Sequence record: MG966531
Length of the DNA: 39,752 bases
Reading direction: 5' to 3' (one strand)
Source of the DNA: Escherichia phage Ebrios
The notes beneath the pieces are model-generated. The model worked only from the letters and a program-made list of their open reading frames with translations, was not told the origin of the DNA and ran no database searches. Positions 1-39,752 of the stretch are shown in pieces (position 1 is the first letter of the stretch; every line of letters begins with the position of its first letter). A program made the position numbers and the translations under genes.

Positions 1-209
1 TCTCACAGTGAAGAAACCCAAAGTTCCCCCATAGGGTATCCCAAGGGCCGCCCCCCTCAATGGCCCCTTGAGACGCTTTGAGAGACCCTAAGGGATGGCC
101 TAAGGTTGACCATTGAGTGACCCTAAGGACTAGGCCTAGACCTAAGGGGAGACCATTAGAGGAGACTTTGAGGGGACATTGAGTGTCCTAGTGTCCCTAT
201 CTGTTACAA
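1..209 (+). repeat. Genome left end; putative direct terminal repeat region (right copy lies outside the window)
   Basis: Starts with TCTCACAGTG as at the T7 left end; ends near ...CCCTATCTGTTACA as the T7 terminal repeat does. Length cannot be verified without the right end. Confidence 0.45.
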
Positions 210-380
210 CCTCCTAAAGTATCCCATAAAGTCACCTCATAAAGTATCTCATAAAGCCACCTCATAACGTCCTTCCTAAAGCCAACACCTAAAGTCTACA
301 CCTAAAGACGCCATCGAGTAAAGGCCTATCTTAAAGTATCCCTAAAGCCAACACCTAAGGCCAACACCTAAAGATGCCTT
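210..380 (+). repeat. Array of short CCTAAAG / CATAAAG / CACCTAAAG heptamer-type repeats near the left end
   Basis: Repeated cctaaag, cataaag, acacctaaag motifs visible directly; T7 carries similar short repeats next to its terminal repeat. Confidence 0.6.
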
Positions 381-37291: not shown

Positions 37292-39052
37292 ATGTCTGTG
37301 CAGTCTAACCGTAATGCGCTCGTAGTGGCGCAACTGAAAGGCGACTTCGTGGCGTTCCTGTTCGTCCTTTGGAGGGCTCTGAATCTACCGGAGCCCACAA
37401 AGTGTCAAATTGACATGGCCCGAACGCTGGCGAATGGGGACAACAAGAAGTTCATCCTACAGGCTTTCCGAGGTATCGGTAAGTCGTTCATTACGTGTGC
37501 CTTCGTTGTGTGGTCGCTGTGGCGTGACCCTCAATTGAAGATTCTCATTGTGTCTGCCTCTAAGGAACGTGCAGACGCTAACTCAATCTTTATCAAGAAC
37601 ATCATCGACCTGTTGCCCTTCTTGGCTGAGCTGAAGCCTAGAGCTGGTCAGCGGGACTCCGTAATCAGCTTTGACGTTGGCCCTGCGAAGCCTGACCACT
37701 CTCCGAGTGTGAAGTCCGTGGGTATCACTGGTCAGTTGACTGGTAGTCGTGCCGACATCATCATTGCGGATGACGTTGAGATTCCGTCTAACAGTGCGAC
37801 TATGGGTGCCCGAGAGAAGCTGTGGACTCTGGTTCAGGAGTTCGCTGCGTTGCTTAAGCCCCTGTCGACTTCCCGAGTGATTTACCTTGGGACACCTCAG
37901 ACAGAAATGACCCTCTACAAGGAACTGGAAGATAACCGTGGCTACACCACCATCATCTGGCCTGCCCTGTACCCGAGGAGCCGTGAAGAAGACCTGTACT
38001 ACTCACAGCGTCTCGCACCGATGCTCCGAGCGGAGTACGACGAGAACCCTGAGGCCCTGTCTGGTACACCTACCGACCCTGTGCGCTTCGATAGGGAAGA
38101 CCTGAGGGAACGTGAGCTGGAATACGGCAAGGCTGGCTTTACGTTGCAGTTCATGCTCAACCCTAACCTGAGTGATGCTGAGAAGTACCCTCTGAGGCTC
38201 CGTGACGCTATCGTAGCGGCTCTGGACTTGGAGAAGGCACCGATGCACTACCAGTGGCTCCCGAACCGTCAGAACCTCATTGAGGAGCTGCCAAACGTGG
38301 GCCTTAAGGGTGATGACCTTCATACGTATCACGCTTGCTCCAACAACACCAGTAAGTACCAACAGAAGATTCTGGTCATTGACCCGAGTGGTCGTGGTAA
38401 GGACGAAACTGGCTGGGCAGTACTCTATACGCTCAACGGCTACATCTACCTTATGGAGGCCGGAGGTTGCCGTGATGGTTACTCTGATAAGACGCTCGAA
38501 TTGCTCGCTAAGAAGGCCAAGCAGTGGCAAGTCCAGACTGTGGTCTTCGAGAGTAACTTCGGTGACGGTATGTTCGGTAAGGTGTTCTCTCCGATTCTCC
38601 TTAAGCACCACAACGCTGTCCTTGAGGAAATCCGTGCGAGAGGCATGAAGGAGGTTCGCATCTGTGATACTCTGGAACCTGTCATGCAGACTCACCGCTT
38701 GGTTATCCGCGATGAAGTCATTAGGGCCGACTATCAGACCGCTAGGGACGCTGATGGCAAGCATGACGTGAAATACTCACTGTTCTACCAGATGACCCGT
38801 ATCACCAGAGAGAAGGGAGCACTGGCTCACGATGACCGCTTGGATGCTCTGGCGCTTGGCGTAGAGTTCCTTAGGGAGTCCATGCAGCTCGACTCAGTGA
38901 AAGTGGAGGATGAACAGCTCGCAGACTTCCTTGAAGACCATATGAACCGTCCTGCGGTCTCTGGTCACAATATCATGGAGCTGGCTGTGGGTGGCCTTCA
39001 CATCTACTCTGAGGATGACGATGGGTTCTCCGGTGGGTTCATTGAGTGGTGA
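37292..39052 (+). CDS. 19: Gene 19 terminase large subunit (DNA maturation protein B)
   Basis: 586 aa, same as T7 gp19; Walker A-like motif near the N-terminus ([10 protein letters not shown]); RBS TGGAGGAA. Confidence 0.96.
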
Positions 39053-39133
39053 TTTAGTCACGTAATGTGCATAAGGAAGCACTTTAGGCCACGGAAGGCC
39101 AATATGATAAGTTGCTGATTTCCAAGGACAAAT

Positions 39134-39156
39134 TAATACGACTCACTATAGGGAGA
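39134..39156 (+). promoter_or_regulatory. Phage promoter phiOR (class III)
   Basis: TAATACGACTCACTATAGGGAGAGG. Confidence 0.9.
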
Positions 39157-39310
39157 GGAGGGACTAAAGGTTATATATAGTGTACTGAATGAATAGACTT
39201 TGAGTGCATAAAGACCGAATAAAGTCCTACCTAAAGTTTCCATTAAGTGGTGGTGGTTATTATCAACAATACACCACCTAACTCTAAGAACACTCTAAGG
39301 AGGAGACCTC

Positions 39311-39463
39311 ATGTTCCGCTTTGTGCTGACCCTGCTGAAACATAGGGTCACTTACCGATTTCTCGTTGTACTTGTTGCTGCCCTTGGGTGTGCATCAACT
39401 ATTGGGGACACCATCGGTACATTGGAGTCTTACGTCTGTGCTGTACTCTCTTGTAGCGATTAG
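39311..39463 (+). CDS. 19.5: Gene 19.5 small hydrophobic protein
   Basis: MFRFVLTLLKHRVTYRFLVVLVAALGCAST... (50 aa) resembles T7 gp19.5; RBS TAAGGAGGAG. Below the ORF-track cutoff. Confidence 0.8.
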   Translation: MFRFVLTLLKHRVTYRFLVVLVAALGCASTIGDTIGTLESYVCAVLSCSD

Positions 39464-39479
39464 GGTTCTAGTGACCGAA

Positions 39480-39740
39480 TGAATCAGCATTGCTTTCCGC
39501 TTAGCTGTGGCCTACTGGGTCTACCTAAGGCTCAACGCTGAGGGATTCAGCGGTATGATTACATCACACCACTTCATCCCTATAGAGTCAAGTCCTAAGG
39601 TATACCCTATAGGCCACACCTAAGGACTATCAATGGGTCTACCCAAAAGTCCACCTAAGGGTGGGCTGTACTGTGTGTGGTCTTAAAGAGGGAACCTAAG
39701 GAGGTGCCCTAAGGAGACCCTTTAAAATATACCACAAAAA
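39480..39740 (+). repeat. Right-end region with short CCTAAGG-type repeats, just before the expected right terminal repeat
   Basis: Recurrent cctaagg / acctaagg motifs; the window ends ...AAAATCTGAGCGACTA, as T7 does immediately before its right terminal repeat. Confidence 0.5.
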
Positions 39741-39752
39741 TCTGAGCGACTA

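What the first reader, a model, noticed from the sequence alone, without database searches (positions are those of the whole stretch)
39157..39310. Non-coding stretch between phiOR and gene 19.5 with a GGTGGTGG / CCACC hairpin
After the right-most promoter there are about 150 nt with no convincing ORF. They contain a potential stem (AAGTGGTGGTGGTT ... ACACCACCTAAC) and AT-rich runs. In T7 this end region takes part in concatemer processing and packaging.
Basis: partly seen in the sequence, partly recalled or inferred. Interest (0 to 1): 0.2.

Follow-up and report, generated by a model that had tools for sequence, protein, structure and literature searches.

The report
Conserved hairpin in T7-type phiOR leader
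The 160-base untranslated stretch after the last promoter of this T7-like phage holds a small stem-loop that related phages keep by matching mutations on both sides, so it is a real but uncharacterised signal, and it is not the hairpin known from T7 DNA packaging.

Summary
The window is a T7-like phage genome (Teseptimavirus, about 97.5% identical to phages IME15 and PZL-Ah1 over its right end). A perfect consensus T7 promoter (phiOR, 39134-39156, +1 = 39151) is followed by a 160-nt AT-rich leader with no credible ORF, then gene 19.5 (39311-39463). The stem is present: GGTGGTG 39249-55 / CACCACC 39272-78. The register shared with relatives is GGTGGT 39252-57 / ACCACC 39273-78.

Alone, the hairpin is no better than chance (z about -1.0 to -1.4). 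Relatives settle it. At least ten stem versions occupy the same position across eight or more Studiervirinae genera, with compensatory changes. A blind consensus fold of whole leaders predicts this helix and nothing else. A covariance model finds it only at this position in about 305 kb. Phages that lack gene 19.5 keep it.

It is not the T7 packaging "M-hairpin". That is most likely the 19-nt-arm inverted repeat downstream of gene 19.5 (39541-39581), which matches T7 at 40 of 41 bases. My best reading is a structural element of the phiOR transcript. Its function is untested. Rfam and the GenBank records I inspected carry nothing for it. Interest is modest.

The parts
39134..39156 (+). phiOR promoter: perfect T7 class III-type consensus, positions -17 to +6, with +1 = G39151
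   Evidence: 23/23 match. Only 4 of the 11 promoter-like sites in the window are perfect, and 0 are expected by chance. It aligns with the annotated T7 phiOR at 39229.
39151..39310 (+). 160-nt untranslated, AT-rich leader of the phiOR transcript. It is also the promoter-adjacent region of the phiOR secondary replication origin.
   Evidence: No ORF with a ribosome-binding site. G+C is 39% against 52.9% genome-wide, the 1.3rd percentile. It is 97.4-99.3% identical in four close relatives, although the spacer upstream of the promoter drops to 74-78% in two of them. phiOR is named as a secondary origin in PMC8373140.
39249..39257 (+). 5' arm of the hairpin. GGTGGTG 39249-55 is the 7-bp register. 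GGTGGT 39252-57 is the register shared with relatives.
   Evidence: (I12)
39258..39272 (+). A/T-rich loop TATTATCAACAATAC. Its 5' part, TTATTATCA, recurs in other genera.
   Evidence: The same motif is seen in Citrobacter YSYH, Klebsiella 5OI88, T3, K11-like variants and Dickeya Katbat. PP81 has the related ATTATAACAATA.
39272..39278 (+). 3' arm of the hairpin: CACCACC (ACCACC 39273-78 in the shared register)
   Evidence: The covariance-model hit spans 39245-39284 (37.5 bits, E 1.3e-5).
39296..39305 (+). Shine-Dalgarno sequence TAAGGAGGAG of gene 19.5
   Evidence: Read directly from the sequence. It is not paired with the hairpin in any predicted fold.
39311..39463 (+). Gene 19.5: a 50-aa small protein with a hydrophobic stretch
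39541..39581 (.). Context only, not part of the finding. Long inverted repeat AGGGATTCAGCGGTATGAT-tac-ATCACACCACTTCATCCCT, the probable counterpart of the T7 M-hairpin.
   Evidence: I4; T7 copy; 40 of 41 bases match T7; literature pointer

Best explanation
The stretch is the 5' leader of the transcript that T7-type RNA polymerase starts at phiOR. About 100 nt downstream of the start (+99 to +128) the + strand folds into a stem-loop. It has a 6-7 bp stem whose 5' arm is G/T-rich and whose 3' arm is C/A-rich, closing a loop of about 15 nt rich in A and U that begins UAUUAU.

Shown:
- The helix is kept by compensatory substitutions across Studiervirinae.
- It is the only conserved helix in the leader.
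- It is unique in the genome.
- It survives in phage lineages that have lost gene 19.5.

Inferred: the element works as RNA in the phiOR transcript, and its shape plus the first loop bases matter more than the arm sequence. Most likely it is a cis-acting stability or processing element, or a protein-recognition hairpin, that protects or marks the right-end transcript. That transcript is the gene 19.5 mRNA where the gene exists. In all of these phages it runs on towards the concatemer junction.

Nothing here tests what the hairpin actually does.
For: 1. Covariation.
- In a MAFFT alignment of 9 lineages (A3), 54 of 54 cells pair and 4 of 6 pairs carry double changes. The covariation score is 0.50 against 0.146 in shuffles (0 of 500 reach it). 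Sliding the partners gives 37-73% paired.
- In a blind alignment of 11 whole leaders (A6), RNAalifold predicts exactly this helix and no other. There, 95.5% of 66 cells pair and 13 cells carry double changes, against 5.4 +/- 2.4 in shuffles (0 of 500).

2. Many stem versions at one position: GGTGGT/ACCACC, GGTGAT/ATCACC (T7, T3), GGTTGT/ACAACC, GGTGTT/AACACC, GAGGGT/ACCCTC, AGAGGGT/ACCCTCT, GGATGGT/ACCATCC, GGGATG/CATCCC, GGGATGG/CCATCC and TGATGG/CCATCA.

3. Folding. In 18 lineages, a fixed window from -85 to -13 relative to the ATG always has the hairpin in its minimum-energy fold. All z-scores are negative, with a mean of -1.36.

4. Specificity. Covariance model R1 hits only this position in 176 kb and then 129 kb of loci plus the window. 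The only strays were two hits at E of 4.6-4.9 in the first search, which was run up to E = 10.

5. Independence from gene 19.5.
- The Pectobacterium phages PP81, PPWS4 and MA1A and the Escherichia phages SRT7 and P1723 have the promoter and the hairpin. In PP81 and SRT7 I found no 19.5-like ORF, and no CDS is annotated across the region in any of the five records.
- PP47 is 98.4% identical to PP81 over this region and also has no CDS annotated there, but I did not read its hairpin.
- Within the PP81/MA1A and SRT7/P1723 pairs the stems are unchanged and the differences fall in the loop.

6. Signs that the + strand or RNA is what folds.
- Wobble pairs on the + strand (G.T or T.G) occur in L076, L258, L268 and L074.
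- One clear A.C mismatch on the + strand occurs in L095. Two K11-like variants (L048, L055) may carry another in the inner stem.
- Pseudomonas phages replace the open loop with a 4-nt bulge, a covarying upper stem (UGCU/AGCA against UGGC/GCCA) and a tetraloop: GAAA, GCAA, GAUA or AAUA.

7. Contrast with the neighbouring DNA-level element. The M-hairpin-type repeat is conserved in sequence (40 of 41 bases with T7), whereas here the arm sequences drift and only the pairing is kept.

8. RNA-seq of wild-type T7 found gene 19.5 RNA to be the most abundant phage RNA late in infection (PMC6938266). This is compatible with a stable transcript.
Against: - No experiment bears on this hairpin.
- The sequence cannot separate an RNA hairpin from the same hairpin in the displaced non-template DNA strand.
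- The wobble count is small: 4 wobbles against 1 clear mismatch and 2 possible ones.
- Only two of the four Pseudomonas tetraloops are GNRA.
- The hairpin lies about 100 nt from the 5' end, unlike classic 5'-terminal stabilisers.
- In phages without gene 19.5 there is no obvious message to stabilise.
- High 19.5 RNA could simply reflect the perfect-consensus promoter.
- Insertions in most intergenic sites at the T7 genome ends were tolerated (PMC11482910), so any effect is probably modest in the laboratory.
- I picked the nine sequences of alignment A3 because MAFFT aligned them consistently. A6 was not selected that way.
Confidence: 0.45

Rival explanations
1. DNA-level element of the phiOR origin or of right-end processing. 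When T7 RNA polymerase transcribes from phiOR and the RNA stays hybridised (an R-loop), the displaced + strand folds into the same hairpin. This would stabilise the open complex that primes replication, or prepare the right end for processing.
For: - phiOR is a secondary origin, and a phiOR-origin plasmid replicated in E. coli only with a T7 RNA polymerase variant and RNase H inactivated. The authors propose, as speculation, an R-loop priming mechanism (PMC8373140).
- The first 60 nt of the leader have 18 G and 4 C on the non-template strand.
- The hairpin persists where gene 19.5 is absent.
- The G-rich arm always comes first, and no C occurs in any 5' arm.
Against: - From my memory of Fuller and Richardson's work, RNA-to-DNA transitions at the T7 primary origin lie 10-60 nt from the promoter, upstream of +99.
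- No preferred T7 primase site (GGGTC, TGGTC or GTGTC) lies in or beside the hairpin on the + strand.
- The covariance model finds nothing similar near phiOL or the phi1.1A/B-type promoters of the window.
- A 6-bp DNA stem with a 15-nt loop is weak: -6.9 kcal/mol for the 61-nt DNA fold, z = -1.2.
Confidence: 0.25
2. Translational control of gene 19.5. The hairpin sits 19-46 nt upstream of the start codon and tunes ribosome access, for example as a standby site or by holding an anti-SD-like 3' arm away from the Shine-Dalgarno sequence.
For: - The distance from the stem to the ATG stays within 19-46 nt in all phages that have 19.5, even in the short-leader group (L004 type) that lost about 60 nt upstream.
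- In the Pseudomonas phage locus L253 the 3' arm with its flank reads ATCACCTCCTTA. Phage Vasula (L086) reads ATCACCTCCTAC. From memory, the first is identical to the 3' end of 16S rRNA and could pair with the Shine-Dalgarno sequence.
Against: - Two independent lineages without gene 19.5 keep the hairpin.
- In the window, and in the other lineages folded, the predicted folds do not pair the hairpin arms with the Shine-Dalgarno region where that region is included.
- The anti-SD resemblance is confined to a few Pseudomonas phages.
Confidence: 0.1
3. Double-stranded binding site for a dimeric protein, for example the small terminase gp18 (a PacB-type site) or a host factor, which recognises the inverted repeat and the AT-rich centre.
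For: - The loop motif TTATTATCA is conserved across genera.
- Its AT-rich core is kept in Dickeya phage Katbat, and a related GATTATCAATTATGATA in Yersinia phage fPS16, both of which lack the GC stem.
- T7 Pac includes a PacB site bound by gp18 (PMC9860248), and I could not find its coordinates.
Against: - The arm sequences differ freely between phages while staying complementary. Wobble pairs occur. That is the signature of base pairing, not of sequence read-out.
- Loop length varies from 5 to 19 nt.
- In the Pseudomonas phages the centre is replaced by a bulge, a stem and a tetraloop.
Confidence: 0.08
4. This hairpin is the T7 M-hairpin of concatemer processing, which is what the first reader implied.
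For: The library text says only that the M-hairpin is 'adjacent' to gene 19.5 (PMC2680503). That wording does not formally exclude the upstream side.
Against: - A much better snap-back candidate lies downstream of gene 19.5: 19-nt arms with a 3-nt spacer, centred 190 bp left of the terminal repeat in both T7 and the window, and matching T7 at 40 of 41 bases. This fits my recollection of the site mapped by Chung et al. 1990.
- A 6-7 bp stem with a 15-nt loop is a poor fold-back primer.
Confidence: 0.05
5. Chance stem with no function. The conservation reflects only shared ancestry.
For: Single-sequence z-scores are weak, from -0.05 to -2.5. A perfect 6-bp stem is expected about 0.5 times per 100 nt (my own calculation).
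Against: - Compensatory double changes occur at 3-4 of 6 pairs and exceed all 500 shuffles and all slid controls.
- The same helix appears in 18 of 18 lineages.
- Changes in close pairs fall in the loop.
Confidence: 0.05

Closest known systems
T7 'M-hairpin' (hairpin end formed during concatemer processing; Chung, Nardone and Hinkle 1990; Kim and Chung 1996; Kim et al. 1997)
   Same: Both are inverted repeats in the non-essential right-end region between phiOR and the terminal repeat, and both are transcribed from phiOR.
   Different: - The probable M-hairpin repeat lies downstream of gene 19.5 (window 39541-39581, T7 39568-39608).
- It has 19-nt imperfect arms and a 3-nt spacer.
- It is conserved in sequence: 40 of 41 bases match T7.
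- The hairpin of the finding lies upstream of gene 19.5. It has a 6-7 bp stem and a loop of about 15 nt, and its arms drift while staying complementary.
T7 secondary replication origin phiOR (a T7 promoter plus adjacent AT-rich DNA)
   Same: The finding's coordinates are the AT-rich DNA directly downstream of phiOR. T7 origins need a T7 RNA polymerase promoter, and phiOR can drive plasmid replication (PMC8373140).
   Different: Published descriptions define the origin by the promoter and the AT-rich region, not by a hairpin. The hairpin starts at +99. Nothing similar follows the other origin-associated promoters of this genome.
T7 RNase III processing sites (R0.3 to R18.5)
   Same: Both are stem-loops in intergenic parts of T7 polymerase transcripts. 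In several lineages the flanks (CTAAG ... CTTAAG) can pair and extend the stem across an internal loop.
   Different: - From memory of Dunn and Studier 1983 and Nicholson's work, RNase III sites are about 20 bp of irregular helix. This one has 6-10 bp.
- No RNase III site is listed at this position in the annotated T7 records.
- The covariance model finds no sibling elsewhere in the genome.
5'-UTR stabiliser hairpins (for example the T7 phi10 leader stem-loop and the ompA 5' UTR)
   Same: A stem-loop in the leader of a highly abundant late phage RNA.
   Different: Those hairpins sit at the very 5' end. This one is about 100 nt in and is retained where no ORF follows.
T7 class I terminator (Tphi type)
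   Same: A G+C-containing hairpin in a T7 polymerase transcript.
   Different: There is no U run after the stem (it is followed by TAACTCTAAG), and the stem is short. The terminator scan found nothing here on the + strand.

Membership tests
T7-group phiOR promoter and leader of gene 19.5 | T7-type promoter as the last promoter of the genome, between gene 19 and gene 19.5 | tested here: met
   23/23 consensus at 39134-39156, the last of 11 promoter-like sites. It lies after the gene 19 stop at 39052 and before gene 19.5 at 39311, and aligns to the annotated T7 phiOR.
T7-group phiOR promoter and leader of gene 19.5 | Untranslated, AT-rich stretch downstream of the promoter | tested here: met
   No ORF with a ribosome-binding site. 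39% G+C, the 1.3rd percentile.
T7 secondary origin phiOR | Supports initiation of DNA replication dependent on T7 RNA polymerase | not testable with these tools
   Known only from the literature for T7 itself (PMC8373140). Here it is inferred from homology.
Conserved structured cis element (RNA or single strand) | The same helix at the homologous position in diverged relatives | tested here: met
   18 of 18 lineages. RNAalifold on whole leaders predicts only this helix.
Conserved structured cis element (RNA or single strand) | Compensatory base changes beyond the controls | tested here: met
   A3: 100% paired, 4 of 6 pairs with double changes, 0 of 500 shuffles reach the score. A6: 95.5% paired, 13 double-change cells against 5.4, 0 of 500. 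Slid controls give 37-75%.
Conserved structured cis element (RNA or single strand) | Formed in RNA rather than in DNA | tested here: inconclusive
   On the + strand: 4 wobble pairs against 1 clear A.C mismatch, plus 2 possible ones in an inner stem. GNRA-type tetraloops occur in some Pseudomonas phages. This is suggestive only.
T7 M-hairpin (concatemer processing) | Long inverted repeat able to snap back, adjacent to gene 19.5 and about 190 bp left of the terminal repeat | tested here: not met
   The finding's stem has 6-7 bp with a 15-16 nt loop and lies about 490 bp left of the repeat boundary. The repeat that fits the description is 39541-39581. The mapped coordinates come from memory and were not read.
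T7 RNase III site | About two helical turns of imperfect duplex with an internal loop; cleaved by RNase III | tested here: not met
   The helix is 6-10 bp in all lineages. No similar element occurs elsewhere in the genome. Cleavage itself cannot be tested here.
Intrinsic or class I terminator | Stable hairpin followed by a U/T run | tested here: not met
   No T run follows the stem. The scan found no + strand terminator-like site in 38900-39752.
Any Rfam family | Match to a curated covariance model | tested here: not met
   Rfam 15 in E-value mode on 38950-39752 gave nothing at the hairpin. The only hits were sub-threshold miRNA-model matches at 39501-39709.

The most novel reading that the evidence does not exclude
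The hairpin is a dedicated cis element of the right-end transcription unit and does not depend on gene 19.5. It would be a structured RNA, or the same hairpin in the displaced DNA strand, that couples phiOR transcription to a DNA transaction. One possibility is R-loop priming at the right-end origin. Another is recruitment of terminase to the polymerase that later pauses at the concatemer junction. Either would be a previously unrecognised component of T7-group replication or packaging, conserved from enterobacterial to Pseudomonas phages.
Probability: 0.2. Interest if true: 0.55.

Novelty: new member of a known kind. Interest (0 to 1): 0.35.

Why it matters
T7 is one of the best-annotated genomes. 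Its right end (phiOR, gene 19.5, the M-hairpin and the terminal repeat) is used in phagemids and transducing particles. It is also where replication, transcription and packaging meet.

A stem-loop kept by compensatory evolution across many genera, including phages that lost the downstream gene, points to a function that current annotations miss. If that function is RNA stability, it is a useful part for engineering. If it links phiOR transcription to replication or packaging, it fills a gap in a mechanism unresolved since 1990. The practical stakes are modest, because the region is non-essential in the laboratory.

Tried and rejected
- Rfam, E-value mode: nothing at the hairpin.
- Sigma-70 promoter and intrinsic terminator scans: nothing on the + strand in the leader.
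- Small ORFs 39204-39281 and 39247-39345: no Shine-Dalgarno sequence, and not conserved.
- DnaA box: TTATCAACA matches the consensus TTATCCACA at 8 of 9 positions. An IHF site was also considered (the TTR part of the consensus is missing). Relatives share only TTATCA, so both were dropped.
- Mini-ORF in the loop: T7 has TTG-TAT-TAG after the SD-like GGTGAT. The window and most lineages have no start codon there, and L016 extends the frame.
- SD/anti-SD switch: the 3' arm resembles the 3' end of 16S rRNA only in a few Pseudomonas phages.
- Long-range pairing of the 5' end of the leader with the region just upstream of the hairpin (window fold): not recovered by RNAalifold, and L061 inverts the partner.
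- Direct repeat D2 (ACAATACACCAC-like motif at 39266, 39561 and 39724): 10 of 12 matches within 700 nt were judged compatible with chance.
- Alignment A4 from the covariance model mixes hits from both strands, so I did not use it for pair counts.
- Literature: the Chung/Hinkle and Kim/Chung papers and Pajunen 2001 are not in the library. No coordinates for PacB or the M-hairpin could be obtained.

Full report
WHAT THE WINDOW IS. The 39,752-base window is a complete T7-like phage genome carrying one copy of the terminal repeat. It starts with TCTCACAGTG, as T7 does. The left repeat ends near the class II pause-like TATCTGTT at 198-205. The right end stops where the second repeat copy would begin. 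Its last 713 bases are 97.5% identical to Stenotrophomonas phage IME15 and Aeromonas phage PZL-Ah1 (genus Teseptimavirus) and about 78% identical to T7.

THE OBSERVATION.
- Gene 19 (large terminase) ends at 39052.
- A perfect 23/23 T7 consensus promoter lies at 39134-39156, so +1 is G39151. It is the last of 11 promoter-like sites in the genome, with 0 expected by chance. It aligns with the annotated T7 phiOR.
- Gene 19.5 is the 50-aa ORF at 39311-39463, behind the Shine-Dalgarno sequence TAAGGAGGAG at 39296-39305.
- The 160 nt in between hold only two GTG-initiated ORFs, of 25 and 32 aa, with no ribosome-binding site.
- This leader is 39% G+C against 52.9% for the genome, the 1.3rd percentile.
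Two alternative registers exist because of the GGT repeat.
- On its own the stem is not remarkable. RNA and DNA folds give z = -1.44 and -1.22.

COMPARATIVE EVIDENCE. I collected the region downstream of gene 19 from about 270 loci in IMG/VR and GenBank.
- A hairpin sits at the same place in every genus examined that has a GC stem there. It lies 19-46 nt upstream of the gene 19.5 start and usually 90-125 nt downstream of the promoter.
- The arms differ between lineages: GGTGAT/ATCACC (T7, T3, Pseudomonas phage Vasula), GGTTGT/ACAACC, GGTGTT/AACACC, GAGGGT/ACCCTC, AGAGGGT/ACCCTCT (K11-like), GGATGGT/ACCATCC, GGGATG/CATCCC (BA14), GGGATGG/CCATCC and TGATGG/CCATCA.
- The window's homologous register is GGTGGT 39252-57 / ACCACC 39273-78.
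- In a MAFFT alignment of nine lineages, all 54 cells pair and 4 of 6 pairs show changes on both sides. The covariation score is 0.50 against 0.146 in shuffles (0 of 500). Sliding the 3' partners drops pairing to 37-73%.
- To avoid my own selection of sequences, I gave RNAalifold 11 whole leaders of 147-172 nt. It predicted exactly one helix, this one. On that alignment 95.5% of 66 cells pair. Thirteen cells carry double changes, against 5.4 +/- 2.4 in shuffles (0 of 500).
- In 18 lineages, a fixed window from -85 to -13 relative to the ATG always contains the hairpin in its minimum-energy fold. All 18 z-scores are negative, with a mean of -1.36.
- A covariance model built from the nine sequences hit only this position in 176 kb and then in a further 129 kb. 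That included lineages not used to build it. The only strays were two hits at E of 4.6-4.9 in the first search, which was run up to E = 10.

The element is therefore real, position-specific and unique in the genome.

FURTHER ANATOMY.
- The loop is A/T-rich and begins with a TATTAT-like motif. The window's TTATTATCA recurs in Citrobacter, Klebsiella, T3-like and K11-like phages and in Dickeya phage Katbat; PP81 has the related ATTATAACAATA.
- Pseudomonas phages keep the lower stem. They turn the loop into a 4-nt UUAU/UUAA bulge, an upper stem that itself covaries (UGCU/AGCA against UGGC/GCCA) and a tetraloop: GAAA, GCAA, GAUA or AAUA.
- Only G-C, A-U and U-A pairs occur. No 5' arm contains C.
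- Rare imperfect variants are mostly G.T or T.G on the + strand (L076, L258, L268, L074). One clear A.C mismatch occurs in L095, and two K11-like variants (L048, L055) may carry another in the inner stem.
- In the window's four closest relatives the leader is 97.4-99.3% identical. In two of them the spacer between the gene 19 stop and the promoter falls to 74-78%.

WHAT THE HAIRPIN IS TIED TO. Two independent lineages have the promoter and the hairpin but no gene 19.5.
- Pectobacterium phages PP81, PPWS4 and MA1A: PP81 has no 19.5-like ORF, and no CDS is annotated between the terminase gene and the terminal repeat in these records. PP47, 98.4% identical to PP81 over this region and with no CDS annotated there, was not read at the hairpin.
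- Escherichia phages SRT7 and P1723: SRT7 has no 19.5-like ORF and neither record annotates a CDS there.
- Within each lineage the stems are unchanged and the differences fall in the loop.
- The short-leader group (L004 type) lost about 60 nt of upstream leader but kept the hairpin.

A role limited to translating gene 19.5 is therefore unlikely.

RELATION TO T7 PACKAGING.
- The library gave only indirect text. The T7 'M-hairpin' is adjacent to gene 19.5 and was deleted together with it (Kim and Chung 1996; Kim et al. 1997, cited in PMC2680503).
- Phagemids need a T7 origin, a pac site and a terminal repeat. Pac comprises PacB and PacC.
- In T7 the only long inverted repeat nearby is AGGGATTCAGCGGTATGAT/ATCACACCACTTCATCCCT at 39568-39608. 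It is centred 190 bp left of the terminal repeat.
- The window has it at 39541-39581, matching T7 at 40 of 41 bases, although the flanks are poorly conserved.
- This fits my recollection of the site mapped by Chung et al. 1990, and it is a far better snap-back structure than a 6-bp stem.
It is not annotated in the T7, BA14, IME15 or other records I inspected, and it is not in Rfam.

MECHANISM.
- Shown: a single-strand helix under selection, in a region always transcribed from a consensus phage promoter, and independent of gene 19.5.
- Inferred: it acts in the phiOR transcript.
- Arguments for RNA: drifting arms with kept pairing, in contrast to the sequence-conserved M-type repeat; the + strand wobbles; the tetraloop and bulge architecture in Pseudomonas phages; and the very high late abundance of 19.5 RNA in wild-type T7 (PMC6938266).
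- Main rival: the same hairpin in the displaced non-template strand of an R-loop at the phiOR secondary origin. phiOR-origin plasmids need RNase H inactivated, and the authors speculate about R-loop priming (PMC8373140). The first 60 nt of the leader have 18 G and 4 C on that strand.
- Weaker readings are a protein-binding palindrome, a gene 19.5 translational switch, an RNase III site, a terminator and chance. The reasons are given under the rivals and the membership tests.
- Insertions at most intergenic sites near the T7 ends are tolerated (PMC11482910), so the element is probably not essential in the laboratory.

VERDICT.
- The finding is a new member of a known kind, a conserved leader stem-loop of a phage late transcript, in a very well-studied genome.
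- Interest is 0.35.

Noticed in passing
window 39541-39581: Inverted repeat AGGGATTCAGCGGTATGAT-tac-ATCACACCACTTCATCCCT just downstream of gene 19.5. It matches T7 39568-39608 at 40 of 41 bases although the flanks are poorly conserved. It is centred 190 bp left of the terminal-repeat boundary in both phages. It is probably the T7 M-hairpin of concatemer processing. Variant copies with changes on both arms occur in Klebsiella phage 5OI88, BA14 and SRT7.
   Followed up: partly
window 39087-39100: Small hairpin GGCC-ACGGAA-GGCC about 35 nt after the gene 19 stop and upstream of phiOR. The same position has GACC..GGTC in T7 and GCCAC..GTGGC in L074/L075, so it also appears to covary.
   Followed up: partly
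window 39184-39194 and 39474-39484: The motif ACTGAATGAAT lies in the leader, and ACCGAATGAAT lies just after the gene 19.5 stop (D14). T7 has the identical CTGAATGAAT in its leader. K11-like phages and phiEap-1 carry it in the opposite orientation (TTCATTCA).
   Followed up: no
window 39067-39077 and 39204-39214: Repeated GTGCATAAGGA / GTGCATAAAGA (D11). TGCATA/ATGCA motifs recur before and after phiOR in T7, T3, BA14, K11-like and Pectobacterium phages. They could be a repeated protein-binding motif.
   Followed up: no
window 39333-39352 and 39470-39489: A 20-nt inverted repeat, 80% complementary, brackets most of gene 19.5: TGCTGAAACATAGGGTCACT / AGTGACCGAATGAATCAGCA (I3).
   Followed up: no
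L004, L005, L007, L012, L013, L015, L017, L019, L023-L025, L068, L079: Many relatives carry an extra ORF of about 140 aa inserted between gene 19 and phiOR. It is annotated as a putative HNH endonuclease in Serratia phage SM9-3Y. In the T7-like subset (L004 type) the phiOR leader is shortened to about 97 nt but keeps the hairpin.
   Followed up: partly
L158/L276 (Pectobacterium phage PP81), L157 (Escherichia phage SRT7): These phages have no gene 19.5 at all between the terminase gene and the terminal repeat, yet keep the phiOR-type promoter and the hairpin.
   Followed up: yes
L088 (Yersinia phage fPS16) about 230-680; L091 1-60: In fPS16 the region upstream of gene 19.5 is a tandem array of units of about 85 nt. 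Each unit carries an AT-rich core (TATGATTATCAATTATGATATTA) without the GC stem. Yersinia phage AKS2022HT31GU has tandem TAGTGACTACTCT repeats upstream of its hairpin.
   Followed up: no
L253 and L086 (Pseudomonas phages): In L253 the 3' arm of the hairpin with its flank reads ATCACCTCCTTA. From memory this is identical to the 3' end of 16S rRNA (the anti-SD region). Vasula (L086) reads ATCACCTCCTAC. It lies 20 nt upstream of the gene 19.5 start.
   Followed up: no
window 1-210 and 39752: The window carries only the left copy of the terminal repeat, which ends near TATCTGTT at 198-205, a class II pause-like sequence. The right end stops at the repeat boundary, so the true genome is about 200 bp longer.
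   Followed up: partly
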